The notes under the pieces are model-generated. The model was not told the origin of the DNA. It worked only from the letters and a program-made list of their open reading frames with translations, and ran no database searches. A stretch of 64,000 nt of DNA, taken from the IMG/VR virus record IMGVR_UViG_2872147552_000001; one strand, written 5' to 3'. Below are positions 8,156 to 58,359 of the stretch, in pieces; position 1 is the first letter of the stretch, and the number at the start of each line of letters is the position of its first letter. The position numbers and the translations under genes are program-made. The stretch comes from a virus (Duplodnaviria > Heunggongvirae > Uroviricota > Caudoviricetes).

Positions 8156-8249
8156 AGATCCCTCTAAAACACACAGAGCGCGTCCATGCGCTCTAAAACA
8201 ACTTGTTTACTGAATCTGCTAACCAACTTGTTTTCTGGGGTGTTTAATT

Positions 8250-8349
8250 AGGTCTGGGCATGTCTTATTAAGCCTGCTTCCGTATATATTTAATAAGTTA
8301 CTTATTATTTATATATACAGAAGCAGGTCTTTAAATAAGCTCCCAGACC
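8250..8349. repeat. nested inverted-repeat element, copy 1 (outer arms AGGTCTGGG/CCCAGACC, inner arms GCCTGCTTCCGTATATA/TATATACAGAAGCAGG)
   Basis: Long AT-rich palindrome seen directly in sequence upstream of the terminase operon; near-identical copy at 38751-38850. Confidence 0.6.
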
Positions 8350-8351
8350 GG

Positions 8352-8618
8352 TTACATCACCAGTAACTTCGCTTTGGCTCGACCTAAAGTGGTTAACCCA
8401 AGAGTTCGGCGGTGATAGCGATTGTCACTGCGTTGGCGCGTATGCCCTTTCTCCACCAGCCCCTTTTTTATCAGAGCGCGAATTGAGAACTGGATACTTT
8501 GCTTGGTTGTCTTGTACGGCAAAACTTCAAGCAATTCGTCCAGATCAAGTAAATGACCTCGCTCATAACCGAGGTTGAGCGTTTTGATGATGTCCTTTTG
8601 TTTATCGGTTAACGTCAT
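8352..8618 (-). CDS. small DNA-binding protein (winged-helix-like), hypothetical
   Basis: 88-aa basic ORF, AAGGA RBS; first gene upstream of the terminase. Confidence 0.35.
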   Translation of the reverse strand: MTLTDKQKDIIKTLNLGYERGHLLDLDELLEVLPYKTTKQSIQFSIRALIKKGLVEKGHTRQRSDNRYHRRTLGLTTLGRAKAKLLVM

Positions 8619-11754: not shown

Positions 11755-11836
11755 TTTATTGCTACAATCCACTAAGTAATCACTTACTTATTATAATAGC
11801 CAAATAACATACAAAAGGCACTAAGGAAAGAGGTTT

Positions 11837-13398: not shown

Positions 13399-13677
13399 AT
13401 GAGTGAAAAGAAAACAACTTACTGTCAGGTAGCATTGTCTGATAAGGCCAATGACAAACTTGGAAAGTTTCAAGTGAAACTAAAAGAAAAAAATATCAAA
13501 ATGTCTAAGGCTGAAGTCATAAATACCATTCTGGAACAATTGACAATGGCCGACTTTGACAAGGTTATATCTTCTGTCGGGGCTTCCGCTAAGACTCGTG
13601 AGAAAATCATGCGTATCTATGAGAACTCTAATATGACAAAGGAAGATCTCGAAACGCTATTAAGCAGATTAAAATAA
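13399..13677 (+). CDS. small DNA-binding protein, possibly ribbon-helix-helix
   Basis: 92-aa ORF whose N-terminus (KTTYCQVALSDKANDKLGKF) has a beta-strand-then-helix pattern like RHH proteins; coupled to helicase stop. Confidence 0.35.
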   Translation: MSEKKTTYCQVALSDKANDKLGKFQVKLKEKNIKMSKAEVINTILEQLTMADFDKVISSVGASAKTREKIMRIYENSNMTKEDLETLLSRLK

Positions 13678-14172: not shown

Positions 14173-14697
14173 ATGACAACCAAAGATATTACCTACGGTA
14201 TCCAAGCTGAACTCTGGCCGCGAGATTACACTAACGTTGAAAAACTACTGATGTTCTGGCGCAGAGAACAAATTCCTGTAAGGGTCACTCTCGAAGATGG
14301 CCAGGCGTTTTGCATGTACGTTTATGGCCTCATGCCATCTCGTAACAAAGTTGACCTTTGCCCAGCCCCTTTTGACAAAGAAAATCGTATAAGGCTCCCA
14401 CTTGAACGCATTAGTACAATTGAATCAGGTGTGGTTGACAGTATCGCTCACGATTTCAAAGGTCGACTAACAGTTCACCCTGATTATGTCGATAATCGGC
14501 CATCACGCCGCGATTTTTTTGCAATTTGCAACCAAGCCTACAAAGCAAACAAATCTATAAGGGTGTACATGGCGGATGGCCGTGAAATTGAGGGGGTGTC
14601 AGCAGGCGCAGATGCTTGTCAGGTTACACTACGTGTCGAGAACGGTAGAAAAATAGTTGTTTTGTTCGATTGGGTTGAACGAATTTTGCCTTTTTGA
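14173..14697 (+). CDS. hypothetical protein with two Rof-like repeats (tentative)
   Basis: Track ORF 14095..14697 trimmed to ATG at 14173 just after the upstream stop; repeats VRVTLEDGQAF and IRVYMADGREIEGV faintly resemble the Rho-inhibitor Rof fold. Confidence 0.35.
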   Translation: MTTKDITYGIQAELWPRDYTNVEKLLMFWRREQIPVRVTLEDGQAFCMYVYGLMPSRNKVDLCPAPFDKENRIRLPLERISTIESGVVDSIAHDFKGRLTVHPDYVDNRPSRRDFFAICNQAYKANKSIRVYMADGREIEGVSAGADACQVTLRVENGRKIVVLFDWVERILPF

Positions 14698-15009: not shown

Positions 15010-15199
15010 ATCTATAAGGTTAATAACCGGCTAAGTCCGGTTATTATTTTTCACATCACTTCTTTATATCTATAAATCAAATAACCTAAATATATATAAG
15101 GTCTAAAGCCGGAATCGATTATTTATTTAGGGAACACCTTCGACGATCTCGCTTTTATTTCTAGGACTTTCATCCCTGCAAAAAAATTTAAAAAAACAC

Positions 15200-15228
15200 T
15201 TGCAATCTTTTTTCGCATATCGATAATT
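15200..15228 (+). promoter_or_regulatory. sigma70-type promoter candidate (TTGCAA - 17 nt - GATAAT)
   Basis: -35 and -10 hexamers with 17-nt spacer inside an AT-rich gap about 65 nt upstream of the 15293 start. Confidence 0.45.
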
Positions 15229-15292
15229 GAACTCGTCGAAAGCGAAGACGCTAACGACAATAAATTTTAAATTTACATAAGGAAAAATTATC

Positions 15293-15943
15293 ATGGCTAA
15301 CATTATCATTTCTAAAAAATCCATCATTGAAGCTGCTTCCATTGTATCCGATGAACTGCGCGAAAAAGCAGATCTGGCAACTCAAACATATAACGAACAT
15401 TATAAAAATGGTACGCACACTAAAGCAGACAAAGCAAATATGCAAGCTGCGACCACTAAACTTGCTTACTTCATCAACAACGTTGTAAACGCTGTAGAAG
15501 ACGAAAAATTATGCTCTGTTTTCTACTATGCGATCAAAGCAAGCAAACAAGCGCCAGAAGTTTTTTTCCGTGATGCAATGACTAACAGTTATTCTCTGGA
15601 AAAACTGGTTTATCTGGTCAAATCAATTAAATCTGGTAAATGCGTTTATTCCGTCGCTGATATGTCAGGATCTCGTGTATTTGCTTTAATCGATATGATT
15701 AACGACGAGATCGACACGTTCACCAATGGCGCTGTTTTCGATTTAATGAATGAAGCTAAAAAAGCGTGCGAAATTAAATTGGACGCTGGCTATACTCAAG
15801 CCAACCAGTTGATCAATCTTTGCGAACGTCTCGGACTTGTTGAAAAAGTCAAAGGAGCTGGGAGCGCGAAAGCTGGTACTCAGCAATATCGCTTCGTTAA
15901 AAATGATTTTTATAACTATCTGGCTGATGCTTTTAAAGCGTAA
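15293..15943 (+). CDS. hypothetical protein
   Basis: 216-aa ORF with AAGGAAAAA RBS after an AT-rich promoter region. Confidence 0.45.
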   Translation: MANIIISKKSIIEAASIVSDELREKADLATQTYNEHYKNGTHTKADKANMQAATTKLAYFINNVVNAVEDEKLCSVFYYAIKASKQAPEVFFRDAMTNSYSLEKLVYLVKSIKSGKCVYSVADMSGSRVFALIDMINDEIDTFTNGAVFDLMNEAKKACEIKLDAGYTQANQLINLCERLGLVEKVKGAGSAKAGTQQYRFVKNDFYNYLADAFKA

Positions 15944-16447: not shown

Positions 16448-16448
16448 A

Positions 16449-16478
16449 ATCGAGCGCCCATAGTGGGCGCTTTTTTCG
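16449..16478 (+). terminator. rho-independent terminator
   Basis: GAGCGCCCATAGTGGGCGC hairpin followed by TTTTTTCG. Confidence 0.6.
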
Positions 16479-16496
16479 TTTCCAATACTCCCACCA

Positions 16497-16526
16497 TAGC
16501 GCGCCATCATTGGCGCGTTTTTTATT
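16497..16526 (+). terminator. rho-independent terminator (second of tandem pair)
   Basis: AGCGCGCCATCATTGGCGCG hairpin followed by TTTTTTATT. Confidence 0.55.
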
Positions 16527-16938
16527 GTCTTTAACTCACTCCAACAACATAAAAATAAGCGCCAAAATAACGCCATAGACGCGCTTTTATATCCTTACCA
16601 GTACATACCCATTACTTAGCACATTAACGCGCTTAAAATGCGTTATATTGCGCTATAACGTATGGCTAATCATTGGCTTTTATTCTTGCTATGTGATCCG
16701 CGTTTATTTGTCGGCGCGGATCGGCATTTTGTGTTGTTCTGTATCCGCTCGCGTATTATGTGCGCGTGATTTTTCACATAATCACACCACTTAATCACGT
16801 ATGTGATTACGCTACGAAAGAAATCTGGATGTCTCAGGCGACGAAAGTCATCATAATTTTCCCCGCTCGCCTGTCCGACAACCGCTGGTTGGATTCCACC
16901 AGCTTCCCGATGTTTTTTTCTACATAAAGGCGAATGCA

Positions 16939-17052
16939 GCCGTTTCCCGAAAAAATCCTGGCCGTTTCCCGTCGGCTCATGAATACGTTCCTCGCCGTTT
17001 CTGAAAATTTCCCTGCGGCAGCTGGTGGCTATAGAGAAAGGGCCGTTTCTGG
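16939..17052 (+). repeat. direct-repeat array A (4 copies of GCCGTTTCC-type motif)
   Basis: CCGTTTCCCGAAAA, GCCGTTTCCCGTCGG, GCCGTTTCTGAAAA, GCCGTTTCTGGCC read directly; a Chi octamer GCTGGTGG lies at 17021-17028. Confidence 0.55.
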
Positions 17053-17064
17053 CCCTCTTCTCAG

Positions 17065-17547
17065 TTACACGCCATCAAGGATGTGGATGCGGTTGCTTGC
17101 GTATACATTCAGCATAAAGTTAGCGCAAAACAGTTTCCATGTATCAACGCCAGCGGTATACGTAATGTTTTTGCATTTAATCGCATTGTTGGCGATCCGC
17201 ATCCCCTGCGATACTGCTTCATCGTCGGAAAATTTGAACGACGATTGAGTTTTAATCCAGACAGAAATCTGCGTAGCGAACTCAATCAGCTTGGACTGGC
17301 AGAATCGCCCGGAGCGCACCGGAAAGACGAACGTTCCGAATCCAGAATTTACCACATACGCTTTCTCAAATACCCGCGAGTAACGACGATTGCCAATGAT
17401 GTCGCGTGCAATAATGCATTTTTCTTGTGCTGACAGTTCTACCGTCTCATTGTCGCGCCATGCACCAAGTACTCGTTTTTCAATGTCAGAGAACGTTACA
17501 GCGATATTGCCATGTGCGGGTGCGTTTACAGTAGCGATAAAATTCAT
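17065..17547 (-). CDS. hypothetical early protein
   Basis: 160-aa ORF with AAGGAA RBS, preceded by the conserved early promoter/operator module. Confidence 0.45.
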   Translation of the reverse strand: MNFIATVNAPAHGNIAVTFSDIEKRVLGAWRDNETVELSAQEKCIIARDIIGNRRYSRVFEKAYVVNSGFGTFVFPVRSGRFCQSKLIEFATQISVWIKTQSSFKFSDDEAVSQGMRIANNAIKCKNITYTAGVDTWKLFCANFMLNVYASNRIHILDGV

Positions 17548-17565
17548 GATTAATTCCTTATCGTA

Positions 17566-17601
17566 AATAACAAATTGTTTTCTTGTTGGTGTTAATTATC
17601 G
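17566..17601 (-). promoter_or_regulatory. early promoter/operator module (GATAAT ... AGAAAACAA-N-TTGTTT palindrome)
   Basis: Conserved element about 20-40 nt upstream of the start codon; one of at least 13 copies in the window. Confidence 0.45.
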
Positions 17602-17722
17602 TTGTACGAATAAGGCGTCAAAGTGGAAAGTTGCGGTAGCCGGACGGGAACAGGTGGGTTTGTCGGTTGCCTGGAGGTAAGAGGTTGGTGTTTTTAGCCT
17701 GCGGGAAACAGGATGGTCATTT

Positions 17723-17746
17723 AAGGCCACCAGCATTGGTGGCCTT
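17723..17746. terminator. hairpin AAGGCCACCAGCATTGGTGGCCTT (intergenic stem-loop family)
   Basis: Perfect 9-bp stem; contains the reverse complement of the Chi octamer; no strong T-run. Confidence 0.4.
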
Positions 17747-17751
17747 AATCT

Positions 17752-18039
17752 TTAGTGGAGCAGACCGATGTCGATGGTATCCCCTGAATCATCCACACGG
17801 ATCATCAGCATGGCGAAGGCGTTTAGTGGATAACTGGCGTGCCATTCAGGGAAGCGGTCATCTCGCATGAAGTCGGCAATGTCGTAAACGCATCCCTCAA
17901 AGTGGAAGAATCGCGTGCTTACCTGCTCGTCATATTCCACATGATCCATTTCTTGCTGTTCTGTTTCCGGCAAGTCCAGCCATGATTCAAGGAATACATT
18001 TTGTGCTTTAGGGGTAATGGTGAAATCAGTCATGAGCAT
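17752..18039 (-). CDS. hypothetical early protein
   Basis: Track ORF 17752..18165 trimmed to ATG at 18039, because the upstream part of the track ORF runs through the conserved promoter module. Confidence 0.45.
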   Translation of the reverse strand: MLMTDFTITPKAQNVFLESWLDLPETEQQEMDHVEYDEQVSTRFFHFEGCVYDIADFMRDDRFPEWHASYPLNAFAMLMIRVDDSGDTIDIGLLH

Positions 18040-18052
18040 ATCCTCACTGCGT

Positions 18053-18086
18053 AAACATGTTGTTTTCTTGTTGGTGTAATTATCGC
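18053..18086 (-). promoter_or_regulatory. early promoter/operator module
   Basis: Same GATAAT/AAACAA-N-TTGTTT architecture as at 17566. Confidence 0.45.
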
Positions 18087-18368
18087 AGTGTAGATAAGGC
18101 ATAAAAGAAGTTAATACAGGCTGAATACACAAGAAAGGTTCTGGAAGTTGATAGCCAGGTTTCAAACTAACCTTCGGTTATTAAAAGTCATTTAAGACCA
18201 CCAATGCTGGTGGCCTTAATAATTATCGACCGATTACGCTAAGGATCTTTTCCTCAACTGATTTGTTGTTGCGACTAAACTGCCTTGCGTATCTGATGAC
18301 AGAAGAGGCGTTTTGCTTTCTGACCATCTCGGCTCTTTCCTTCAGGCGTTTCTTGAAATCGCCCATAT

Positions 18369-18743
18369 TTACCACCAGGCGCAGAAGGTCAGTCTGTTAT
18401 TGTGAAAGTCGTGGTTCTTAATCAGATCTTCCACAATCTCTTTCAACTCCCCCACATCATGCCAGTAACCTTCATCGTACTCCTGACTGCCGAAGAAAAA
18501 ACCTTCCCGGGTAGGCAAGTACTCTTCGCAATTACTTTCGTTTATGTGCATCAAATGAGCCTTCAGAAAACAAATGTCATTCATCGTTAATTCTAAAAGC
18601 TCACAATTTTCGACTTCACCTACGTTGCGCTCCATCCACCCAACGAGCGCATTGAACTTACGGAAGTAAGCAACCTGCTTTCTGGATGCCTCGTTATTCA
18701 GATCGTTTTTAGGCTGTGTCTCGATATAGATATCAAGTCCCAT
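18369..18743 (-). CDS. hypothetical early protein
   Basis: Trimmed to ATG at 18743 with AAGGAAA RBS; conserved motif copy at 18797-18817. Confidence 0.45.
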   Translation of the reverse strand: MGLDIYIETQPKNDLNNEASRKQVAYFRKFNALVGWMERNVGEVENCELLELTMNDICFLKAHLMHINESNCEEYLPTREGFFFGSQEYDEGYWHDVGELKEIVEDLIKNHDFHNNRLTFCAWW

Positions 18744-18860
18744 GATGGTTTCCTTATTAAGTTGCTTCAGTGAAATCATTTTCACAAATCAGATAAGGCA
18801 GAAAACAAATTGTTATCGGGCATAAGAAAATGGCGCGGTTTACGCGCCATTTAAAGAGGA

Positions 18861-19256
18861 TTAAGCGAATACGCTTTCAGGGATTAAGGTGTCGGCAGGA
18901 ATGCCAGAGGTAATGCGCAGGCCGTACTGACCAATCCAGGCAGTGTTGGTATTCAGGTTGGAGGCGAATACGGTGTCAACCATATTCATCATTGGTTCAA
19001 ACACCTCTTCATCAACCTGGCGGAAGTAGTTCTCGATTTTCAGCAGCAGCGGGTCAGTTGCATCGAAAATAGACTGGTATTGAATCGCGTACTCGCCGCC
19101 GGAGGCATCACCTTTACGCACGATCGTACTGGCCTGGACTTCGGCACCAGTTTCGGTGTTGTACGTAACAACGGTGATTTTTGCCACATTCTTACCTTCG
19201 GCGGTTTCAGAGGCATAGTAAACATCAACTGTCAGTTTTTCGCGTTTAACGGTCAT
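18861..19256 (-). CDS. hypothetical early protein
   Basis: Trimmed to ATG at 19256 with GGAGAG RBS. Confidence 0.45.
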   Translation of the reverse strand: MTVKREKLTVDVYYASETAEGKNVAKITVVTYNTETGAEVQASTIVRKGDASGGEYAIQYQSIFDATDPLLLKIENYFRQVDEEVFEPMMNMVDTVFASNLNTNTAWIGQYGLRITSGIPADTLIPESVFA

Positions 19257-19320
19257 TTCACTCTCCGTAGTGTATTGGTTATTTTTATATTCTATGATCG
19301 TAAGTATGTACTTACAATAC

Positions 19321-19348
19321 AAAAAAGCCCCGTAAGGATGGCGGGGCT
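19321..19348 (-). terminator. rho-independent terminator
   Basis: Minus-strand hairpin AGCCCCGCCATCCTTACGGGGCT followed by TTTTTT. Confidence 0.55.
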
Positions 19349-19382
19349 GTCGTACTGTCGACTAATTACCACTTGCACATTA

Positions 19383-19694
19383 TCAGGCTATTGCCATCAC
19401 TGATGCTCTCTGAATTTCTTGCTGGGCCACGCGGTTAACTTCCATCAAAGCCAGTTCGAGCTGATGTTCCGGCCACATTCTTTGAAATGCCATCCAGCCT
19501 TTTCCACGCTGGCGACGAACATTCATTACATAACGAGTAAAGGTGTTTTTATCGAAAGACACCGCTGTTTCACGGAACAGACGAATAGAGGTTCCATTGG
19601 CAACGATGTCCAGCAAAGTTAATTGAGCAACCAGCGCAGGCTTCTCTTTTCTCTTCTGGTCTTTGTCCAGACCAAGAACCAATGATTTTTTCAT
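19383..19694 (-). CDS. hypothetical early protein (basic)
   Basis: Trimmed to ATG at 19694; promoter module copy at 19706-19740. Confidence 0.45.
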   Translation of the reverse strand: MKKSLVLGLDKDQKRKEKPALVAQLTLLDIVANGTSIRLFRETAVSFDKNTFTRYVMNVRRQRGKGWMAFQRMWPEHQLELALMEVNRVAQQEIQRASVMAIA

Positions 19695-19848
19695 CACAAC
19701 TCCGTAAACAACTTGTTTTCTCAATGGCGTAAATAATACCAGTAAGAAAACGGCTACAAAGCATAATGATCAGGTGCATGATCGATATGCAGGTTCTTCC
19801 CTGCGGCTACATATTAAGTTAAGCCAGCAATGCTGGCTTTGGTTGGGG

Positions 19849-20178
19849 TTACTCGAATACTTCAAGAAACTCCTGAACGTCCCAATGCTGGACGAGGTGA
19901 AGATAGACCTTAGAAATCACGTCATTTTCGCTATCGCATGTGAAGTAGTACTTCTGGCTGCGGTTGTATGTGTCCACACAAAATTCGCTCATATCCATAA
20001 AGTCAGCATCTTCACCCATGTCGCAAATCATCAAAGCAGGTGCGTCATCACGAGTCATCAGCTCAAGCACCCACCGCGAATTGATCAGAGTGGAAGACCA
20101 ACCTTCTAACTCATAAAACTGATCAAACTCTTTTTGAGTTAATTTCTTGATTTGGTTGATGTCGATATTTGCAAACAT
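19849..20178 (-). CDS. hypothetical early protein (acidic)
   Basis: Trimmed to ATG at 20178 with AAGGA RBS; promoter module copy at 20191-20224. Confidence 0.45.
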   Translation of the reverse strand: MFANIDINQIKKLTQKEFDQFYELEGWSSTLINSRWVLELMTRDDAPALMICDMGEDADFMDMSEFCVDTYNRSQKYYFTCDSENDVISKVYLHLVQHWDVQEFLEVFE

Positions 20179-20540
20179 AAAGCAATCCTTAAACAACTTG
20201 TTTTCTTGATGGTGTTATTATCGCAATAACGCACAGGCGAAAAAGGATTTTATTCCGGTGAATGTGGTTTTGGCAGTGAGTTTTCAGGTTCAGTACCGAG
20301 TACACTTTTTACATTATTCTGATTTAGTGGCCGAAGGTGGCTGGTGGGCAGAATAATCATCTCCCCGAAAACCTACTGAAATCGATTGTGACCCGTTGGC
20401 TGTCTGGCACAATTACGCTGTAGCTGGGCATTCAGAGGGAGTCCAACGGTAAGTTAGTCCGCCTGCACGTGAGCGCCTCTCTTCTTCCCGCACATTACAG
20501 GTGGGTAGCCGCAACTCTCCCTCACGCTATACCGGTACGC

Positions 20541-20672
20541 CGCCGTTCCTGAACCGGCATCGAGCCTTTTCCCGAAATCCACACAGGCAACTCGACCGTT
20601 TCCCTGAAAACCTCCAGCCGTTCCCCGAAGGCAACCCAGCCGTTTCTGTAGCGGGATGCAGCTTTTTCCCTG
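20541..20672 (+). repeat. direct-repeat array B (6 copies of GCCGTTCC/CCGTTTCC-type motif)
   Basis: GCCGTTCCTGAACC, CCTTTTCCCGAAATCC, ACCGTTTCCCTGAAAA, GCCGTTCCCCGAAGG, GCCGTTTCTGTAGCG, GCTTTTTCCCTGTATGG within about 130 bp. Confidence 0.55.
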
Positions 20673-21731
20673 TATGGACCGAAGGCTGACCGTAGGGGTG
20701 TTACGGGGGATAAAATCAGGAGTTGAATAAATACGAAAAAGGAGGCGACACCCCTCCTTCCCTCCCCACTTATACATACCTGGCTTCTTCGCTATACATG
20801 TTGTGTTTTATTCGTGTTTTATCTGTCTCAACCTCTCTATGGACGTTAACACTCACTCCTTCCAGAACGTTCTATACGGCGACTAATTCTGTTGGTGAAT
20901 TGGGTGTGTTGTTCTCTCTGTCGGTGTATGTGGTTTCGTTCGTTTTGCGGTGGTTCTTCTATGGGGTGTTCTCGTCGTTTTGGTGATTGTTCTTCTCCGT
21001 GTATGGAGTAATGGCAGGTGGGCGATTCCTTTCGTTGTTGTGTTTGAGTTGTTTGTCTGGAGTGTGAAAGGCTTTTGTAGTTATTCGTGTATTGGGTAAT
21101 GGCGTTTCCCGTGATTGTTCTGTTTCGTGTCTTTTGGGATTGAGAGAAGCCTTGCGGTTACAGGCTTCGTTGGGGGTTCAGTGATTCTGGTGTTTCTTCG
21201 CTGTTTGGGTAATGGCGTGTCGTGGGTATCGCGCGTATGAATGTTTTCGGATTGCCTGTGAAAGTTAGGTTGGTTGTCCGGTAGCCTGGGGAGAAGAGGT
21301 GGGTCTTTTCGGTAGCCTGCCATAAAGAGGTTGGTTGTTTTTGGAAATGGCATATGTGTTATTTAGTTGTTTTGTTATGCCTGAAAATAAGTTGTTTATA
21401 TGGTTATGTAACGCAACGGGAACGATTTTGAGCGTGTGTTTTTGTTGGTAGTGTGTTGGGTCGTCTGTGGTGAAAATTGGACGCTGTGGCGCTGTCTGCT
21501 GCGTAGAATTACGGGTATAAGCAGTGATGTGTGAAAACGTCAATTTTTTAGACCAAATAGGGTGAAAGCGTTGATGTTTCGTTGATCTGTTATTTAGTTG
21601 TTTTCTTGTTTGTATAAACAACTATAACCTATTGATATTTAAGGATGTGATTGCGGGTATGGAAGGGGAGTAGTGGCGATCAACGGATTCTTATAGAAAA
21701 GAATCAAATTGTGACCGCCATTATCAATGTT

Positions 21732-22511: not shown

Positions 22512-22811
22512 TTACCAGTTCCAGCACTCAAGCCCTTCAACGACCGGTGCACCACAATCAAAATGTACAGAGTCAAAGCCTACATCAAGTACTTTCTGAA
22601 TGTTAGCAATCGCGCCTTCGGATATACCATATCGACGCAAGTCCTCTTTCCAGACATCATCCTGTAACCCGGCGTGGACAATACAACCGCCGTCAATTTG
22701 CGAAACCCAATCCAGCTCATTGCTTGCGATCATGAATCGGCGAGCATCTTCCTCTGATGTATGAGATGAACTGATCAATGCCACCTGGTAGGCTTGGGTA
22801 ATGTTCAACAT
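22512..22811 (-). CDS. hypothetical protein
   Basis: Track start 22820 is GTG; ATG at 22811 has GGAGTGG RBS; preceded by a complete two-operator promoter module at 22821-22892. Confidence 0.45.
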   Translation of the reverse strand: MLNITQAYQVALISSSHTSEEDARRFMIASNELDWVSQIDGGCIVHAGLQDDVWKEDLRRYGISEGAIANIQKVLDVGFDSVHFDCGAPVVEGLECWNW

Positions 22812-22820
22812 TTCAACCAC

Positions 22821-22892
22821 TCCGAAACAATTTGTTTTCTTATGTGGTTTATTATCTCCATCAACAAAAGGCAGAAAACAAATTGTTTTAGG
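22821..22892 (-). promoter_or_regulatory. complete early promoter module (two AAACAA-N-TTGTTT palindromes flanking GATAAT)
   Basis: Best-preserved copy of the module; the host-like insert begins immediately upstream. Confidence 0.5.
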
Positions 22893-22972
22893 TACTGTGT
22901 AAATCAGAAGGGATTGTGTCTATATGAAAATGCCCGGCGTGTTGCCGGGCATTGCGAAGAGAGGTTGTTTAA

Positions 22973-25006
22973 TTACTTAACCTGGTGGCCAGGTTTAGCA
23001 CCAGCATCCGGGCTTAACAGGAAGATATCTTTCCCGCCGGGGCCAGCAGCCATCACCATGCCTTCAGAGATACCGAAGCGCATTTTACGTGGTGCCAGGT
23101 TAGCCACCATAATGGTGTGACGACCAATCAGTGCCTGTGGATCTGGATAAGCGGAACGGATGCCTGAGAAGACATTACGCTTTTCACCACCGAGATCCAG
23201 CGTCAGGCGAAGCAGTTTGTCAGAACCTTCTACAAACTCTGCGTTTTCAATCAGCGCCACGCGCAGGTCAACTTTGGCGAAGTCGTCAAAGGTGATAGTT
23301 TCCTGAATCGGGTCGTCAGCCAGTGGGCCAGTTACCGGTGCGGCTGTGGCTTTCACTTCTTCTTTGGATGCTTCCACCAGTGCTTCAACCTGCTTCATAT
23401 CGATGCGGTTATACAGTGCCTTGAACGGATTTACTTTATGGCCCAGCAGCGGTTGCTGGATACCATCCCAGGTCAGTTCTGTATTCAGGAATGCTTCTGC
23501 ACGTTCAGTCAGTTTCGGCAGTACCGGCTTCAGGTACGTCATCAGCACGCGGAACAGGTTAATGCCCATAGAGCAAATCGCCTGCAGATCGGCATCGCGA
23601 CCTTCCTGCTTCGCCACCACCCACGGAGCCTGTTCATCGACATAGCGGTTAGCCAGGTCAGCCAATGCCATGATTTCACGGATAGCTTTACCAAATTCGC
23701 GGCTTTCCCATGCTTCGCCAATCACTTCAGCGGCATCAGTAAAGGTTTTGTACAGTTGCGGGTCAGCCAGTTCGCTTGCCAGCACGCCGTCAAAACGCTT
23801 GTTTATAAAGCCTGCATTACGGGAGGCCAGGTTAACCACTTTGTTCACGATATCGGCATTCACGCGCTGAACGAAATCCTCCAGGTTGAGATCGATATCA
23901 TCAATGCGCGAAGAGAGTTTCGCAGTGTAGTAGTAACGCAGGCTGTCGGCGTCAAAATGATTCAGCCAGGTGCTGGCTTTAATAAAGGTGCCGCGAGACT
24001 TGGACATCTTCGCGCCGTTCACCGTCACATAGCCGTGAACAAACAGGTTGGTCGGCTTGCGGAAGTTGCTGCCTTCCAGCATGGCAGGCCAGAACAGGCT
24101 GTGGAAGTAAACAATATCTTTACCGATGAAGTGGTACAGCTCGGCGGTGGAGTCTTTCTTCCAGTATTCATCGAAGCTGGTGGTATCGCCGCGCTTGTCG
24201 CACAGATTCTTGAAGGAACCCATGTAGCCAATCGGCGCGTCCAGCCAGACGTAGAAATATTTGCCCGGCGCGTCCGGAATTTCAAAACCGAAGTAAGGCG
24301 CATCGCGGGAGATATCCCACTGTTGCAGGCCGGATTCAAACCATTCCTGCATTTTGTTCGCCACCTGCTCCTGCAACGCGCCGCTGCGGGTCCATGCCTG
24401 CAACATTTCGCTGAAAGAAGGCAGATCAAAGAAGAAGTGTTCGGAATCACGCATTACCGGGGTAGCGCCAGAAACCACCGATTTCGGCTCGATCAATTCA
24501 GTCGGGCTATATGTTGCGCCGCAGACTTCACAGTTATCGCCGTATTGATCTGGCGCTTTACATTTCGGGCAGGTGCCTTTTACAAAACGATCCGGCAGGA
24601 ACATGCCTTTTTCCGGGTCGTACAACTGAGAGATAGTGCGGTTTTTAATAAAACCGTTCTCTTTCAGGCGAGTATAGATAAGCTCAGACAACTGACGGTT
24701 CTCTTCGCTGTGCGTCGAGTGATAGTTGTCATAGCTGATGTTAAAGCCTGCGAAATCAGTCTGGTGTTCCTGACTCATTTCGCCAATCATCTGCTCCGGT
24801 GTGATACCAAGCTGCTGCGCTTTCAGCATGATCGGCGTACCGTGGGCATCGTCGGCACAGATGAAATTAACCTCGTGGCCGCGCATTCGCTGGTAACGAA
24901 CCCAGACATCAGCCTGGATGTGCTCCAGCATATGGCCGAGGTGGATTGAGCCGTTAGCGTACGGCAGCGCGCACGTCACCAGAATTTTCTTCGCGACTTG
25001 GGTCAT
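22973..25006 (-). CDS. metG: methionyl-tRNA synthetase (chromosomal-type, near-identical to E. coli MetG as recalled)
   Basis: 677-aa product from [26 protein letters not shown] with HIGH and KMSKS motifs and the C-terminal tRNA-binding domain; track ORF extends 43 codons upstream of the true ATG at 25006; own hairpin terminator at 22931-22957. Confidence 0.95.
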
Positions 25007-25163
25007 AGTAGGCATTACTTCTTTGTAGTGAAAAGGGGCTTGATAGTAACAAAATGGCCTTATGTCTGCCATGTGATAACAGCATTTCTCATAAATGATT
25101 AAATGTCGTAGCTGGAGTACACTACAAGGCGACAATTGCGCAAATTAAAATAAAGGAGACGGG

Positions 25164-26264
25164 ATGAGCGAGTCCAAATCGCCGGATGCCCTGAGAGCAA
25201 TGGTAGCCGGTACGCTGGCTAATTTTCAGCACCCAACCCTGAAACACAACCTGACTACGCTTAAAGCGTTACACCATGTTGCGTTGATGGATGACACACT
25301 GCATGTCGAACTAATCATGCCTTTCGTGTGGAATAAGCCTTTTGAAGACCTGAAAGAGCAATGTAGTGGTGATCTGCTCCGTATCACTGGCGCAAAGGCT
25401 ATTGACTGGAAGCTGTCGTACAACATTGCCACGCTTAAGCGCGTCAAAAACCAACCAGGCATTAATGGCGTTAAGAACATTATCGCCGTCAGCTCAGGCA
25501 AGGGCGGCGTGGGTAAATCCTCCACGGCGGTAAACCTGGCACTGGCGTTGGCTGCTGAAGGTGCGAAAGTTGGTATTTTGGATGCCGATATCTATGGTCC
25601 ATCAATTCCAACCATGCTGGGTGCGGAAAACCAACGTCCAACCTCACCTGACGGTACTCACATGGCACCTATCATGTCTCATGGCCTGGCAACCAACTCT
25701 ATTGGTTATCTGGTCACCGACGACAATGCAATGGTGTGGCGTGGACCGATGGCCAGCAAGGCGCTGATGCAGATGTTGCAGGAAACTCTATGGCCTGATC
25801 TGGACTATCTCGTTCTCGATATGCCGCCGGGCACTGGTGATATTCAGTTGACGCTGGCGCAGAACATTCCTGTAACTGGTGCGGTTGTGGTAACTACGCC
25901 GCAAGACATCGCGCTGATCGATGCGAAGAAAGGCATTGTGATGTTCGAAAAAGTCGAAGTGCCGGTACTGGGTATCGTCGAAAACATGAGTGTGCATATT
26001 TGCAGTAACTGCGGTCATCACGAGCCAATTTTTGGCACCGGTGGCGCACAGAAACTGGCCGAGAAATACAACACGCAGTTGTTAGGCCAAATGCCACTTC
26101 ATATCTCTCTTCGTGAAGATCTGGATAACGGAACACCAACCGTTATTAGTCGTCCAGATAGCGAATTTACGGCTATTTATCGTGACCTCGCAGATCGCGT
26201 TGCCGCCCAAATGTATTGGCAAGGTGAAGTAATACCTGGCGAAATCGCATTCCGCGCAGTGTGA
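25164..26264 (+). CDS. apbC: Fe-S cluster carrier ATPase ApbC/Mrp
   Basis: 366-aa product with deviant Walker A SSGKGGVGKSSTAVNLA and CxxC motif (ICSNCGHHEPIFG); divergent from metG exactly as in the enterobacterial chromosome; AAAGGAGA RBS. Confidence 0.95.
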   Translation: MSESKSPDALRAMVAGTLANFQHPTLKHNLTTLKALHHVALMDDTLHVELIMPFVWNKPFEDLKEQCSGDLLRITGAKAIDWKLSYNIATLKRVKNQPGINGVKNIIAVSSGKGGVGKSSTAVNLALALAAEGAKVGILDADIYGPSIPTMLGAENQRPTSPDGTHMAPIMSHGLATNSIGYLVTDDNAMVWRGPMASKALMQMLQETLWPDLDYLVLDMPPGTGDIQLTLAQNIPVTGAVVVTTPQDIALIDAKKGIVMFEKVEVPVLGIVENMSVHICSNCGHHEPIFGTGGAQKLAEKYNTQLLGQMPLHISLREDLDNGTPTVISRPDSEFTAIYRDLADRVAAQMYWQGEVIPGEIAFRAV

Positions 26265-26301: not shown

Positions 26302-26691
26302 CTACATCACGGGACAATCATCAAACTCGCCACTTCTTGCGTCGTTGATAATGTGAGTGATCACACCAAACACGGCATTGCTGCCCGTGCATCCATCGTC
26401 ATCCTTTGGCAATGCTTCCTTCTTACCGGTTCTTAAATCCTCCAGATGCTGACGTGGGTACTTCCGGTATCTTTTTACGCGATATTCCCCATCCAGAGCG
26501 CATACAAGCAGAGAACCATCAACCGGGGTAAGCGAGGAATCGACCACCAGCAATGCACCCTGTAATATTCCCTCACGATGATGACTATCAGCTGCCCTCA
26601 TGAAGTAGGTCGCTGAAGGATGTCTAATTATCTGCTGATCAAGAGAAATACGGCTCTCAGCATAATCCGCCGCAGGAGAAGGGAAGCCCAT
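26302..26691 (-). CDS. UmuD'-like S24 peptidase-fold protein (pre-processed form, P1 HumD-like)
   Basis: Product begins MGFPSPAADY..., i.e. at the position created by RecA-mediated cleavage of UmuD; conserved Ser and Lys of the S24 dyad retained (ADSH, VKR); GAGGG RBS; strong LexA box immediately upstream. Confidence 0.65.
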   Translation of the reverse strand: MGFPSPAADYAESRISLDQQIIRHPSATYFMRAADSHHREGILQGALLVVDSSLTPVDGSLLVCALDGEYRVKRYRKYPRQHLEDLRTGKKEALPKDDDGCTGSNAVFGVITHIINDARSGEFDDCPVM

Positions 26692-26707: not shown

Positions 26708-26727
26708 TACTGTTCATTTATACAGTA
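26708..26727. promoter_or_regulatory. LexA (SOS) box TACTGTTCATTTATACAGTA
   Basis: Matches the TACTGT-N8-ACAGTA consensus; lies 17-36 nt upstream of the UmuD'-like start codon. Confidence 0.75.
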
Positions 26728-26784: not shown

Positions 26785-26847
26785 CGTTATTTTCTCGAAC
26801 AAGAAAAGGTAGAAAACAAATTGTTTAAGGCCACAACTAGTGGCCTT
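26785..26847 (-). promoter_or_regulatory. truncated early promoter module plus terminator hairpin AAGGCCACAACTAGTGGCCTT
   Basis: Near-identical to the unit at 31041-31120 down to GTTATTTTC at about 26786, where similarity stops. Confidence 0.5.
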
Positions 26848-29851: not shown

Positions 29852-30405
29852 TACGATGCCTCTAACTTGTCTAACTCTTTCAGCCCTTCACGTACCGCGT
29901 TCACAATGCGTTCCAGATACTGGTATTTCGGGTTTGGTACCGTTGGCCAGTCGGCATACCACGGATCATCACCAAAGAGATTCAGTAGTTTGTTACCGAC
30001 GCCGAAACAGCAGCAGCTTTCTTTTACGTCATCGGCGTTTTCCGCCTCGTCCCACATTTCGCGAGCCAGTACGGCGTCTATTTCTCTCTCTCTTCGTAAC
30101 TTTATGATTTCTGACTTCACGAAAAGCAGATTTGCATCGTTGTCATCGTCGACCGTGCTTCGCAGTTGAGGGTCGAAATAGCCGATTAGATACTCGTTGC
30201 TGACCCGCTTAATGAACGTCTGCACATCATCACCGCCCATAGCAAACCAAGCCGCAGTCCACGCTTTTCCGTAGCAGGTGATGGTGATTCTTCCCTTACC
30301 AGGTTCGTAGTTTTCAATCATCACTCGAACCGGATCGAGGCGTTCCAGATCCGTCAGCACAAAGGAAAGAACATCTATTTTTTCGATCTTCATGCAGCCT
30401 CCCAC
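29851..30405 (-). CDS. hypothetical protein
   Basis: 184-aa ORF in operon context. Confidence 0.35.
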   Translation of the reverse strand: MGGCMKIEKIDVLSFVLTDLERLDPVRVMIENYEPGKGRITITCYGKAWTAAWFAMGGDDVQTFIKRVSNEYLIGYFDPQLRSTVDDDNDANLLFVKSEIIKLRREREIDAVLAREMWDEAENADDVKESCCCFGVGNKLLNLFGDDPWYADWPTVPNPKYQYLERIVNAVREGLKELDKLEAS

Positions 30406-31040: not shown

Positions 31041-31120
31041 CGTTGTTTTCTAGTTGTGGTTATTTTCACAAATAAGAAAAGGTAGAAAACAATTTATTTA
31101 AGGCCACAACTTATGGCCTT
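31041..31120 (-). promoter_or_regulatory. early promoter/operator module plus terminator hairpin AAGGCCACAACTTATGGCCTT
   Basis: Hairpin, inverted TTGTTTTCT/AGAAAACAA elements and -10-like sequence upstream of the HD hydrolase start. Confidence 0.45.
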
Positions 31121-35608: not shown

Positions 35609-35905
35609 GTGTTTTTCCTAATGCTTAAACAAGTTGTTTTCTTATTGGCTTTATTGTGATGTGGCATAAAAGGGGAGCAAGCTAAACGTAAAGGTGCAAA
35701 CTCTCTATTTCGGTCAACGAAACACAAGGGCCATTTGGCCCTTGTCATTAACACGTTGCTTTACGGACTAGCGGATAAGCGAAGTAGATCGCCAGACCAA
35801 TGAGGACGCCATCAGAAATGACAGACATCATCTTTCCCGTAAAATCCACCAACACCGCCATCACCAGAAGAGCAATGACGGTCACAAGCCGGAATCTCTC
35901 AAGCA

Positions 35906-36331: not shown

Positions 36332-36423
36332 GTGTTTTCCTTTTATTATTTGTCAAAACAAGTTGTTTTCTAGTTTCATAAATGCTTGCGCAAAGATGGT
36401 CAATGCATATGCACTAACAACCG

Positions 36424-38750: not shown

Positions 38751-38850
38751 AGGTCTGGGAGTCTCTGATATAAAACAGCCTGCTTCCGTATATTAATAAT
38801 TAATATGTAGTTATTTATATATACAGAAGCAGGCTAATTACAGACGCCAG
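38751..38850. repeat. nested inverted-repeat element, copy 2
   Basis: Shares AGGTCTGGG and the GCCTGCTTCCGTATAT / TATATACAGAAGCAGG arms with the copy at 8250-8349. Confidence 0.6.
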
Positions 38851-40443: not shown

Positions 40444-40601
40444 GTAAGTCTCCTTCTGTTTGGTTACATTTGCGTTTCGATGGCTACATTTTGACTAAAC
40501 CTATCAGGCGGAAAAGTATTAAATACAGGCAGGAAATGATTGAAAGGCGACTGTTCTTTAAAAGAAAGCCTACTTTAAACTTTTTAAAGTAGGCTTTTGT
40601 T

Positions 40602-46545: not shown

Positions 46546-46645
46546 GTGTTTTTCCTTTTTTGATGTGTTTAAACAAGTTGTTATCTTATGTGTTTAAACA
46601 AGGCTTACAAATCAAAGATAAGGTGGGGATATACCCCACCATATG

Positions 46646-58284: not shown

Positions 58285-58332
58285 GTTTTCTTATCCTTTT
58301 AAACAAATTGTTTTCTTAATAAGATAATTGCG

Positions 58333-58359
58333 ATAAAAAAGGCGTCCAACTGGACGCCT
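58333..58359 (-). terminator. rho-independent terminator
   Basis: Minus-strand hairpin AGGCGTCCAGTTGGACGCCT followed by TTTTTTAT. Confidence 0.6.

What the first reader, a model, noticed from the sequence alone, without database searches (positions are those of the whole stretch)
17566..20224. Conserved early promoter/operator module repeated at least 13 times
Seen in sequence: upstream of most small genes in 17-20.2 kb, and also upstream of genes starting at 22811, 31031, 35608, 36331, 46545 and 58284, lies a module with a -10-like GATAAT, the palindrome AAACAA-N-TTGTTT (often with AGAAAACAA), and a conserved RBS context AAGGAAAAACAC-ATG. Copies are at about 17566, 18053, 18797, 19706, 20191, 22821, 26785, 31041, 35627, 36355, 46571, 58301 and 8196-8245. 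Inference: a palindrome between the -10 and the RBS is where a dimeric repressor operator or an RNA-level translational operator would sit. It marks a co-regulated early regulon, and its repetition gives substrates for recombination (the host insert is bounded by two copies).
Basis: seen in the sequence. Interest (0 to 1): 0.55.

Follow-up and report, generated by a model that had tools for sequence, protein, structure and literature searches.

The report
Repeated promoter-operator cassette of a phage-plasmid
A 13-19 bp palindrome (AGAAAACAA-N-TTGTTT) sits at a fixed place in about 20 promoters of this SSU5-type phage-plasmid; it most likely is the binding site of one element-encoded repressor that keeps the genes silent in the plasmid state, and the repeated cassettes also act as cross-over points for swapping small genes.

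Summary
The window is an SSU5-like phage-plasmid (98% identical to Escherichia phage Cyrano/pLF82).

- **Position:** the sites are all intergenic. They lie in gene-sense orientation, 10-11 nt downstream of a -10-like hexamer, so the centre is near +14.
- **Second copy:** four promoters also carry, or carry only, an inverted copy centred near -38, between a terminator and the -35 region.
- **Conservation:** the motif is kept at orthologous promoters (terS, nrdB, helicase, parA, cobT) in Salmonella SSU5, Yersinia pMT1 and Klebsiella plasmids, while the flanks diverge.
- **Expression:** published RNA-seq of the Cyrano lysogen shows the downstream genes at background.

The best reading is a DNA-level repressor operator built into a portable terminator-promoter-leader cassette. 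It marks a genome-wide regulon covering late, replication and partition genes, not an "early" one.

Indel and replacement junctions between close relatives fall inside the cassettes, as with the PeSL elements of T4-like phages.

The binding protein is not identified. The best candidate is the small protein encoded after parA, which lies outside the window. An RNA-level operator for the element's FljA-like, Hfq-fold protein is the main rival.

The parts
8221..8236 (-). Operator copy O1 in the terS (late operon) leader: AGAAAACAAGTTGGTT. It lies 10 nt after the -10-like CCTAAT (8247-8252).
   Evidence: Conserved in SSU5, pMT1 and PhiR41_1.
8196..8211 (-). Operator copy O2 in the terS leader: AGTAAACAAGTTGTTT, 25 bp after O1. 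It is followed by the terminator-like hairpin GAGCGCATGGACGCGCTC + TGTGTGTTTT (8176-8193) and then terS (start 8155).
17568..17600 (-). Module: -10 GATAAT (17595-17600), 11 nt, operator AGAAAACAATTTGTTA (17568-17583). Gene start at 17547.
18053..18084 (-). Module: TGC-GATAAT extended -10 (18079-18084), 10 nt, operator AGAAAACAACATGTTT (18053-18068). The whole cassette 17750-18187 is absent from PhiR41_1.
18778..18815 (-). Module with the upstream inverted copy only: TAACAATTTGTTTTCT (18800-18815), GCCTT, TGT-GAAAAT (-10 at 18778-18783). It is preceded by the terminator GGCGCGTAAACCGCGCC (18832-18848).
19706..19738 (-). Module: TGG-TATTAT (-10 at 19733-19738), 11 nt, operator AGAAAACAAGTTGTTT (19706-19721). 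Gene start at 19694.
20191..20222 (-). Module: TGC-GATAAT (-10 at 20217-20222), 10 nt, operator AGAAAACAAGTTGTTT (20191-20206). The cross-over point relative to PhiR41_1 lies inside the operator (20199-20206).
22825..22888 (-). Full module: inverted upstream copy AAACAATTTGTTTTCT (22873-22888, centre about -38), GCCTT, -10 GATAAT (22851-22856), downstream copy AGAAAACAAATTGTTT (22825-22840, centre about +14). The two centres are 51 bp apart.
26789..26826 (-). Module with the upstream inverted copy only (26811-26826) and -10 GAAAAT (26789-26794). It directly abuts the hairpin AAGGCCACTAGTTGTGGCCTT (26827-26847). Downstream lie a LexA box (26708-26727) and the UmuD'-like gene.
31043..31099 (-). 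Full module with a truncated downstream copy: upstream inverted copy AAATAAATTGTTTTCT (31084-31099), -10 GAAAAT (31062-31067), left half-site AGAAAACAA only (31043-31051). Homology with Cyrano and PhiR41_1 breaks at 31057-31060.
35627..35642 (-). Operator AGAAAACAACTTGTTT, 10 nt after the -10-like CACAAT. Gene start at 35608.
   Evidence: Conserved in Klebsiella.
36356..36371 (-). Operator AGAAAACAACTTGTTT upstream of the TciA-like gene (start 36331).
   Evidence: Conserved in Klebsiella.
46571..46586 (-). Operator AGATAACAACTTGTTT upstream of nrdB. Here it overlaps the -10-like TAAGAT, which sits 11 nt after GCCTT. It is preceded by the terminator GGTGGGGTATATCCCCACC (46622-46640).
58301..58316 (-). 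Operator AGAAAACAATTTGTTT upstream of the gene starting at 58284. It is preceded by the terminator GGCGTCCAGTTGGACGCC (58341-58358).
17721..17748 (-). Terminator hairpin TTAAGGCCACC..GGTGGCCTTAA, repeated at 18192-18219. The two copies bound a gene-plus-module cassette that PhiR41_1 lacks.

Best explanation
The repeat is the operator of one element-encoded DNA-binding repressor. It is built into a portable regulatory cassette made of an intrinsic terminator, an optional inverted operator over the -35 region, a sigma-70 promoter with a good and often TG-extended -10 but a weak -35, an operator from about +5 to +20, and a Shine-Dalgarno sequence.

The ideal site is the 19-bp palindrome AGAAAACAA-N-TTGTTTTCT. 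In each copy the half nearer the promoter core is complete, and the far half keeps only its inner six bases. A dimer, or a dimer of dimers, bound at +14 or at -38, or at both 51 bp (about five helical turns) apart, would block RNA polymerase.

About 20 such sites per genome place accessory small genes, nucleotide-metabolism and replication genes, the partition operon and the terminase/structural operon under one regulator. This keeps them silent while the element lives as a plasmid.

- **Shown:** the enrichment, geometry, orientation and conservation of the site; the silence of the downstream genes in a lysogen of a 98%-identical relative; and cassette junctions that fall in the modules.
- **Inferred:** that the -10-like hexamers are used, that a protein binds, and that it represses.

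Because the cassettes are 50-60 bp repeats in a genome with T4-type recombination genes, they also serve as cross-over points that add, delete or re-promote small genes.
For: **Enrichment and placement**
- 16 hits against 0.5 expected, and 23 against 0.39 expected.
- All strong copies are intergenic.

**Fixed geometry**
- The rule is GCCTT, 11 nt, -10 hexamer, 10-11 nt, AGAAAACAA.
- It holds at 17568, 18053, 19706, 20191, 22825 and 31043. The upstream part holds at 18803 and 26814.
- Downstream-copy centres lie at about +14 and upstream-copy centres at about -38.

**Inverted upstream copies**
- They sit between a terminator hairpin and the -35 region.
- The same is seen in SSU5 at L005 38319. 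This DNA should not be in either transcript.

**Information content**
- It is symmetric over the arms (1.3-1.8 bits per position) and nil at the central base.
- The central base varies among orthologues (T, A or G at the helicase site).

**Conservation**
- SSU5 has 15 distinct sites in L005 and 5 in L004.
- pMT1 gives 7 matches (6 distinct sites) in 40 kb against 0.12 expected.
- The sites are kept at Klebsiella orthologues that are only about 71% identical overall.
- Alignments show the palindrome kept while the leaders diverge or carry indels.

**Expression**
- In the LF82 lysogen RNA-seq (PMC9928086 Table S1) the background median is 9.8.
- Genes behind the sites read terS 7.1, cobT 7.8, CYRAN_58 5.7, nrdB 12.9, TciA 7.0, CYRAN_87 7.1, CYRAN_93 6.3, CYRAN_101 7.5, CYRAN_105 12.8, CYRAN_106 12.2, CYRAN_108 5.7 and CYRAN_110 6.7.
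- Only parA (50), CYRAN_111 (25) and the helicase (21) are above background.

**RNA alternatives are weak**
- Leader hairpins fold at -0.7 to -1 kcal/mol and are not better than shuffles.
- Rfam gives no match.
Against: - No transcription start sites are known, and the -35 regions are poor. The simple sigma-70 scan finds none of the modules, so the promoters may need an activator instead of, or as well as, a repressor.
- Silence in the lysogen is equally expected for activator-dependent promoters.
- Much of the constant spacing could reflect common descent of duplicated cassettes rather than selection.
- At the nrdB, TciA, helicase and 58301 sites the offset to the best -10-like hexamer differs.
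- The downstream copies are always sense-oriented and end 13-27 nt before the start codon (43 nt at terS). That also fits a 5'-UTR element.
- parA carries a perfect site yet is expressed 5-9 times above background.
- No binding protein is identified.
- A distant relative, Moellerella pW1-b, keeps the promoter scaffold and AAGAAA after the -10 but not the palindrome.
Confidence: 0.6

Rival explanations
1. The downstream copies act in the mRNA as a translational operator. The A-rich and U-rich stretch AGAAAACAA-N-UUGUUU, just 5' of the Shine-Dalgarno sequence, would be bound by the element's FljA-like protein (window 14176-14697). That protein would block ribosome entry, as FljA does on fliC mRNA.
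For: - The element encodes a FljA homologue (Pfam Flag1_repress, E 2.5e-84).
- Its AlphaFold model (pLDDT 82) is a tandem of two Hfq-like domains. The best PDB matches are all Hfq (TM 0.7-0.85 normalised to the target, rmsd about 1.1 Å).
- FljA-type proteins block fliC translation (PMC2652032).
- The gene is conserved in SSU5, pMT1 and, in diverged form, Moellerella. It is expressed about 2-fold above background in the lysogen.
- The downstream copies are all sense-oriented and end 13-27 nt before the start codon.
- The Salmonella fliC 5' UTR shares the core CAAGTTGT, 12 nt before its SD.
Against: - The inverted copies lie between terminators and the -35 region and should not be transcribed.
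- E. coli fliC is also repressed by FljA-type proteins, yet the one E. coli fliC 5' UTR I read (strain Z247) lacks the core. The Salmonella match is therefore probably chance.
- The FljA-like gene is only 77.7% identical between the window and Cyrano, whose flanks are 97-98% identical and whose operators are the same. Family members range from 53 to 98% identity.
- mRNA levels, not just protein, are at background in the lysogen.
- The spacing tracks the -10 hexamer.
Confidence: 0.12
2. No dedicated regulator exists. The cassette would be a conserved strong-expression unit: an AT-rich UP-like stretch, a -10, and an AU-rich, S1-binding translational-enhancer leader. Recombination among copies would keep it uniform, as with PeSL elements of T4-like phages, and the palindrome would be incidental.
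For: - Indel and replacement junctions fall in the cassettes, as for PeSLs (PMC2839356).
- From my own recall, untested here, the leader resembles the AU-rich T7 gene 10 leader (AGAAAUAAUUUUGUUUAA).
- Moellerella keeps the scaffold and the A-rich leader without the palindrome.
Against: - The palindrome is kept at single-copy core-gene promoters (nrdB, helicase, parA, terS) across lineages about 71% identical, while the adjacent leader diverges.
- The central base varies freely, but both arms are held.
- The same palindrome appears inverted in untranscribed DNA.
- Strong constitutive promoters would not give background RNA in a lysogen.
Confidence: 0.14
3. The site binds an activator or loads an antiterminator that is made after induction. 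That factor would switch these units on and let polymerase read through the many intercistronic terminators, including the hairpin in the terS leader.
For: - The -35 regions are weak.
- A terminator-like hairpin sits between the two terS operators and terS, and it is conserved with loop changes only.
- The genes are silent without induction.
- An 88-aa protein encoded just upstream of terS (8352-8618) looks like a winged-helix DNA binder by eye only; Pfam found no family. It is silent in the lysogen.
Against: - A centre at +14 is not an activator position.
- The site also occurs at parA, which is on in the lysogen.
- The 88-aa protein is 61% identical in Moellerella, which lacks the palindrome.
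Confidence: 0.08
4. A host protein, such as a nucleoid-associated protein or a global regulator, binds the site.
For: The motif is AT-rich and is shared by elements living in Escherichia, Salmonella, Klebsiella and Yersinia.
Against: - From recalled consensus sequences, it does not fit LexA, CRP, FNR, Fur, IHF, Fis, PhoP, KdgR or DeoR. The only LexA box in the window is elsewhere.
- The Moellerella relative lacks it.
Confidence: 0.05

Closest known systems
Dispersed-operator regulons of plasmid prophages and plasmids: P1 C1 repressor with many scattered operators; RK2 KorB (a ParB protein) with 12 OB palindromes and KorA with OA sites; pSM19035 omega
   Same: One short site is repeated at many separate promoters around an extrachromosomal element. 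It sits over the -35 region or just downstream of the -10, and it places maintenance, replication and (for P1) lytic functions under one element-encoded protein. The site also lies in the partition operon's own promoter, as for KorB and omega.
   Different: - The sequence is unrelated to those operators.
- P1 operators are asymmetric 17-mers, whereas this one is a palindrome.
- Omega binds heptad arrays.
- No binding protein is shown here.
- Some promoters are bracketed by two inverted copies 51 bp apart, each with the complete half-site facing the promoter.

Knowledge of these systems is my own recall, not tested here.
PeSL (promoter-early stem-loop) cassettes of T4-like phages (Arbiol et al. 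2010, PMC2839356)
   Same: They are repeated intergenic terminator-plus-sigma-70-promoter cassettes that flank small orphan genes in a plastic region. Insertions, deletions and promoter swaps between close relatives have their junctions inside the cassettes. The genome encodes T4-type recombination proteins (UvsW, UvsY, gp32-like, RecA/UvsX-like, gp46/47-like).
   Different: - PeSLs belong to virulent phages and carry no operator. Their conserved palindrome is the GC-rich terminator itself.
- Here the conserved palindrome is AT-rich, is not a terminator, and also occurs at core-gene promoters outside the plastic region.
- Mini-circles were not testable.
Translational operators of phage RNA-binding repressors (T4 RegA; Salmonella FljA on fliC mRNA)
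   Same: A short AU-rich element lies next to the ribosome-binding site of many mRNAs, and the element encodes an FljA-family, Hfq-fold protein.
   Different: - The site does not overlap the start codon.
- Its spacing follows the -10 hexamer.
- Inverted copies lie in untranscribed DNA.
- RNA levels are already at background in the lysogen.

Membership tests
Repressor operator of a dispersed regulon (P1 C1 / RK2 KorB / omega type) | The same short site is present at many independent promoters of the element, far above chance. | tested here: met
   16 hits against 0.5 expected and 23 against 0.39 expected in the window. About 20 distinct sites in SSU5.
Repressor operator of a dispersed regulon (P1 C1 / RK2 KorB / omega type) | The site overlaps the promoter core or the first 20 transcribed bases. 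| tested here: inconclusive
   Counted from the -10-like hexamers, the centres fall at about +14 and -38. Transcription starts are not mapped, and some sites have other offsets.
Repressor operator of a dispersed regulon (P1 C1 / RK2 KorB / omega type) | The target genes are off in the prophage or plasmid state. | tested here: met
   In published LF82 RNA-seq for the 98%-identical Cyrano, 12 of 15 genes behind sites are at background.
Repressor operator of a dispersed regulon (P1 C1 / RK2 KorB / omega type) | A cognate element-encoded DNA-binding protein binds the site. | not testable with these tools
   Candidates only. For the post-parA 119-aa protein, the model was poor (pLDDT 64) and there was no match to ParG, omega or any PDB chain.
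PeSL-type mobile regulatory cassette | A composite of a sigma-70-like promoter and an adjacent terminator stem-loop, repeated between small genes. | tested here: met
   Terminator-like hairpins at 17721-17748 and 18192-18219 and at 18832-18848, 22932-22950, 26827-26847, 31100-31120, 46622-46640 and 58341-58358. Each lies upstream of a module.
PeSL-type mobile regulatory cassette | Insertion, deletion or replacement junctions between close relatives lie within the cassettes. | tested here: met
   Junctions at 20199-20206 (inside the operator), 31057-31060 (between the -10 and the operator) and 17749/18188 (the repeated terminator).
PeSL-type mobile regulatory cassette | Circular excision products form between neighbouring cassettes. 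| not testable with these tools
   This needs inverse PCR or long-read data from induced cultures.
RNA translational operator / structured leader | All copies lie in transcribed 5' UTRs. | tested here: not met
   The copies at 18800-18815, 22873-22888, 26811-26826 and 31084-31099 lie between a terminator and the -35 region. Some SSU5 copies, at L005 37625 and 38319, are placed the same way.
RNA translational operator / structured leader | A hairpin more stable than chance, or a match to a known RNA family. | tested here: not met
   For the three leaders whose fold involves the palindrome, MFE is -0.7 to -1 kcal/mol with z of +0.3 to +1.0. There are no Rfam hits at gathering threshold.
Canonical sigma-70 promoter | -35 TTGACA-like and -10 TATAAT-like hexamers 16-18 bp apart. 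| tested here: inconclusive
   The -10 is good (GATAAT or GAAAAT, preceded by TGn in 5 modules). The -35 is T-rich and weak, and the consensus scan reports none of the modules.
LexA (SOS) box | CTGT-N8-ACAG. | tested here: not met
   The motif has no such core. The single LexA box in the window is at 26708-26727, upstream of the UmuD'-like gene.

The most novel reading that the evidence does not exclude
The palindrome would be the binding site of the small protein encoded immediately after the type Ib parA gene (119 aa in Cyrano, 29975-30334, outside this window). That protein would then be both the centromere-binding partition adaptor and the global silencer of phage genes, so the roughly 20 dispersed operators would double as centromere-like sites. 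Partition, copy control and the lysis-lysogeny state of SSU5/pHCM2/pMT1-type phage-plasmids would be tied to one protein. This would be a phage counterpart of KorB in RK2 or omega in pSM19035.

Circumstantial support:
- A perfect site lies just after the -10-like hexamer of the par promoter in Cyrano, SSU5 and Klebsiella. Inverted half-sites AAGAAAACA and TGTTTTCTT lie in the Moellerella par promoter.
- The segment IKSRT(M/V)S.EDE plus RSDV.RAA is invariant in proteins only 29-50% identical overall.
- The protein's mRNA is 9-fold above background in the lysogen.
- It co-occurs with the element family in about 800 plasmids.

Against:
- The ribbon-helix-helix fold is not confirmed.
- pMT1 keeps the sites, but no homologue was found in the roughly 46 kb I searched by tblastn, and Yersinia is not among the top genera in the plasmid search. 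About 20 kb of pMT1 was not examined.
Probability: 0.3. Interest if true: 0.65.

Novelty: new member of a known kind. Interest (0 to 1): 0.45.

Why it matters
SSU5-type phage-plasmids are common in Enterobacteriaceae. More than 700 plasmid records match, including pHCM2 of Salmonella Typhi, pMT1 of Yersinia pestis and Klebsiella elements.

I found no description of how they stay silent as plasmids. The papers I could search do not mention an operator.

A defined operator with about 20 mapped copies gives a direct experimental handle: pull-down or ChIP to find the repressor, reporters to test it, and a way to predict which cargo genes are expressed in carriers.

The cassette junctions also show how these elements gain and lose small genes, and how a cargo gene can acquire or lose repression by a cross-over inside a 16-bp site.

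Tried and rejected
- **S24 peptidase gene behind the 26811 copy as the repressor:** rejected. It is a UmuD'-like protein of 129 aa with no DNA-binding domain, and it has its own LexA box.
- **CYRAN_45 'putative repressor':** rejected. It is absent from SSU5, which has the motif. Its own divergent promoter region carries different repeats, GGTAAG..CTTACC.
- **FljA link through the fliC 5' UTR:** Salmonella shares CAAGTTGT, but the E. coli fliC leader I read does not. I treat the match as chance.
- **92-aa protein after uvsW (13399-13677):** it has a ribbon-helix-helix-like pattern by eye and is expressed 12-fold above background. It is kept as a weaker candidate. Its operon's promoter has a different palindrome, TAAGTAATCACTTACTTA, and homologues exist only within the family.
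- **88-aa protein before terS:** unlikely. It is silent in the lysogen and 61% identical in the motif-less Moellerella plasmid.
- **Sigma-28 and T4 MotA-box readings of the GCCTT / CGATAA region:** considered by eye and dropped, because the spacing does not fit.
- **A 2026 bioRxiv preprint on a phage-plasmid promoter:** it could not be opened.
- **Working limit:** several loci fetched by accession did not reach the Python sandbox, so counts for SSU5 50-100 kb and pMT1 come from the DNA search only.

Full report
**What the window is.** Bases 17000-21000 match Escherichia phage Cyrano (pLF82, OV696614) at 98.4% over the full length. They also match other about 108-kb E. coli phage-plasmids, more distantly Klebsiella elements, and Salmonella phage SSU5 over a short 40-nt stretch. 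The Cyrano annotation shows that the window runs, reverse-complemented, from the recombination and nucleotide-metabolism genes, through a region of small unknown genes, to the terminase and head genes. Nearly all genes are on the minus strand. A 501-nt nrdA-nrdB probe finds 735 plasmid records: Klebsiella 350, Escherichia 170, Enterobacter 89, Salmonella 52 and Yersinia 15, among others.

- AAACAANTTGTTT with ≤1 mismatch occurs 16 times against 0.51 expected, and no shuffle exceeds 2.
- The oriented 16-mer AGAAAACAANTTGTTT with ≤2 mismatches gives 23 matches against 0.39 expected.
- By the Cyrano gene starts all 15 strong copies are intergenic. A crude ORF call makes about 12% of the window non-coding.
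- Information content is 1.3-1.8 bits per position over AAACAA and TTGTTT and about 1 bit over the preceding AGA. It is zero at the centre.

Three details need correction.
- GATAAT itself is present at four modules. GAAAAT is at three, TATTAT at one, and the other sites have weaker hexamers.
- The AGGAAAA(A)CACATG context belongs to only three of the listed genes, and it also occurs at unrelated genes.
- Four copies (18800-18815, 22873-22888, 26811-26826, 31084-31099) are inverted and lie upstream of the -35 region, not between the -10 and the RBS.

**Anatomy.** Read in gene sense, the modules in the 17-31 kb region follow one rule:
- a T-rich -35 region;
- GCCTT;
- 11 nt;
- the -10 hexamer, preceded by TGn in five modules;
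- 10-11 nt, often AACACCA;
- AGAAAACAA-N-TTGTTT;
- 13-27 nt to the start codon.

If transcription starts 7 nt after the -10, the downstream copy spans about +5 to +20, with its centre at +14.

At 22825/22876 and 31043/31087 a second, inverted copy (AAACAA-N-TTGTTTTCT) is centred at about -38, 51 bp from the first. At 18803 and 26814 only this upstream copy is present. In every copy the half nearer the promoter core is complete (AGAAAACAA or TTGTTTTCT), and the far half keeps only its inner six bases.

Each upstream copy lies between a GC-rich terminator-like hairpin and the -35 region. At nrdB the same GCCTT-N11 scaffold ends in TAAGAT, and the operator overlaps that hexamer. The terS leader has two tandem sense copies 25 bp apart. 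They are followed by a conserved terminator-like hairpin and then the start codon.

**Outside the window and in relatives.**
- In the rest of Cyrano the site precedes parA, the replicative helicase and cobT.
- SSU5 has 15 distinct sites in 50-100 kb, counted from 18 matches against 0.11 expected, and five more in 1-50 kb. They sit at the same genes.
- pMT1 gives seven matches (six distinct sites) in 40 kb against 0.12 expected.
- Klebsiella plasmids are only about 71% identical at nrdAB, yet they keep the site at nrdB, TciA, the CYRAN_87 orthologue, parA and the helicase.
- Alignments of the nrdB and terS upstream regions show the palindrome held while the neighbouring leader diverges or carries indels.
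- The distant Moellerella plasmid pW1-b lacks the palindrome: one weak hit against 0.49 expected. It does keep the scaffold GCCTT-N11-(C/G/T)A(A/T)AAT-N10-AAGAAA.

**Expression.** Table S1 of PMC9928086 gives RNA-seq of the LF82 lysogen, with a background median of 9.8.
- Genes directly behind a site are at background: terS 7.1, cobT 7.8, CYRAN_58 5.7, nrdB 12.9, TciA 7.0, CYRAN_87 7.1, CYRAN_93 6.3, CYRAN_101 7.5, CYRAN_105 12.8, CYRAN_106 12.2, CYRAN_108 5.7 and CYRAN_110 6.7.
- The exceptions are parA (50), CYRAN_111 (25) and the helicase (21).
- The same paper reports that ciprofloxacin induces Cyrano 39-fold.

The promoters are therefore off in the plasmid state. This fits repression, but it does not exclude a need for an activator.

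**DNA or RNA?** Four points favour DNA.
- The inverted copies sit in DNA that should not be transcribed from either side.
- The spacing follows the -10 hexamer.
- Both arms are conserved while the centre varies freely.
- The RNA hairpin of real leaders is negligible, at -0.7 to -1 kcal/mol with z above 0, and Rfam finds nothing.

Three points favour RNA.
- The downstream copies are always in sense orientation.
- They lie close to the SD.
- The element encodes an FljA homologue. Its model is a tandem of two Hfq-like domains, and FljA-type proteins block fliC translation (PMC2652032).

The Salmonella fliC leader shares CAAGTTGT with the motif, but the E. coli fliC leader I read does not. The FljA-like gene is also a divergent allele, 77.7% identical between the window and Cyrano, although the two elements have identical operators. 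I therefore rank the RNA reading well below the DNA reading.

**Who binds?** This is not settled.
- The annotated 'putative repressor' CYRAN_45 is missing from SSU5 and has different repeats at its own promoter.
- The S24 protein is UmuD'-like and has no DNA-binding domain.
- The best lead is the 119-aa protein encoded directly after the type Ib parA gene.
  - Its operon's promoter carries a perfect site in Cyrano and SSU5 and a close variant in Klebsiella. The Moellerella par promoter has inverted half-sites AAGAAAACA and TGTTTTCTT.
  - A short strand-plus-helix segment is invariant in proteins otherwise 29-50% identical.
  - It is expressed in the lysogen at 89.
  - In type Ib partition systems the small adaptor normally autoregulates the operon. 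This is established knowledge for ParG and omega, recalled and not tested here.
  - However, I could not confirm a ribbon-helix-helix fold.
  - I also found no homologue in the roughly 46 kb of pMT1 that I searched by tblastn. Yersinia is not among the top genera in the plasmid search, yet pMT1 retains the sites.
- A 92-aa protein after uvsW (13399-13677; 114 in the lysogen) is a second candidate.

**Recombination.** Comparison with Cyrano and PhiR41_1 shows three junctions inside cassettes.
- *20199-20206.* PhiR41_1 has an extra promoter-gene-terminator-promoter unit. The window looks like a deletion whose cross-over lies inside the 16-bp operator. As a result, the same gene is driven by different promoter halves in the two phages.
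- *31057-31060.* The upstream copy, the -35 region and the -10 are shared, but the leader and the genes differ.
- *17750-18187.* This gene-plus-module cassette is bounded by two copies of one terminator hairpin, and PhiR41_1 lacks it.

This is the behaviour described for PeSL cassettes in T4-like phages (PMC2839356). The element also carries T4-type recombination genes.

**Verdict.** The feature is real and functional-looking. It is best read as a repressor operator embedded in a mobile terminator-promoter cassette. It defines a genome-wide regulon rather than an early one in a widespread but poorly studied phage-plasmid family. The kind is known (P1 C1 operators, RK2 KorB and KorA sites, omega sites, PeSLs). 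As far as I could search, this motif, its geometry and its family have not been described.

Noticed in passing
window 14176-14697 (+): A FljA (phase-1 flagellin repressor) homologue is a conserved gene of this phage-plasmid family. It is present in SSU5 and pMT1, and Moellerella has a diverged candidate at the same position that BLAST does not detect. Its model (pLDDT 82) is a tandem of two Hfq-like domains, and the best PDB matches are all Hfq. The allele is only 77.7% identical to Cyrano's, although the flanks are 97-98% identical.
   Followed up: partly
window 26708-26727: The only LexA box in the window (TACTGTTCATTTATACAGTA) lies 17 nt upstream of a UmuD'-like gene (26302-26691). That gene starts at the UmuD cleavage-site region and is strongly expressed in the Cyrano lysogen (148 against 9.8). 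SSU5 has a LexA-like box (CTGTTTATATATACAG) upstream of the 88-aa gene SSU5_103 (about L005 38010-38028).
   Followed up: partly
window 8273-8327 and 38770-38835 (-): A second repeated element has two copies: a long inverted repeat CCTGCTTCTGTATATAT...ATATACGGAAGCAGG followed by CCCAGACCT..ACACC. One copy lies upstream of the terS promoter, and the Cyrano and SSU5 records begin inside it. The other lies downstream of the adenine-methyltransferase gene. It may be a late-promoter or activator site, a strong terminator, or a packaging-related site.
   Followed up: no
window 16939-17049: Four direct copies of GCCGTTTC lie within 110 bp, in a 600-bp non-coding stretch (16448-17064) between convergent gene blocks. 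They look like iterons or a centromere.
   Followed up: no
window 8176-8193 (-): A terminator-like hairpin GAGCGCATGGACGCGCTC + TGTGTGTTTT lies between the two operator copies and the terS start codon. Its stem is conserved in SSU5 and pMT1, with changes only in the loop. This suggests attenuation or antitermination control of the late operon.
   Followed up: partly
window 11773-11790 (+): The perfect palindrome TAAGTAA-TCAC-TTACTTA overlaps the spacer and -10 (TATAAT) of the uvsW promoter. That operon, uvsW plus the 92-aa gene, is transcribed against the bulk of the genome and is expressed in the lysogen. It is probably a separate autoregulatory operator.
   Followed up: no
window 22973-26264: Cargo of host type: a full-length methionyl-tRNA synthetase gene (-) and a MinD/Mrp-like ATPase gene (+). 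They are flanked by the modules at 22825-22888 and 26789-26826. They are present in Cyrano and PhiR41_1 but are not annotated in SSU5.
   Followed up: partly
window 15180-15300: A near-consensus sigma-70 promoter (TTGCAA, 17 nt, GATAAT) lies in a very AT-rich stretch upstream of a conserved 216-aa gene (15293-15943). Its Cyrano orthologue is nevertheless silent in the lysogen (5.9).
   Followed up: no
Cyrano 40268-40822 (L002; outside the window): CYRAN_43 is expressed about 720-fold above background in the lysogen. It lies in an integrase-plus-HTH-repressor island next to tRNA genes. SSU5 has no such island at that position, and no homologue was sought elsewhere in SSU5.
   Followed up: no
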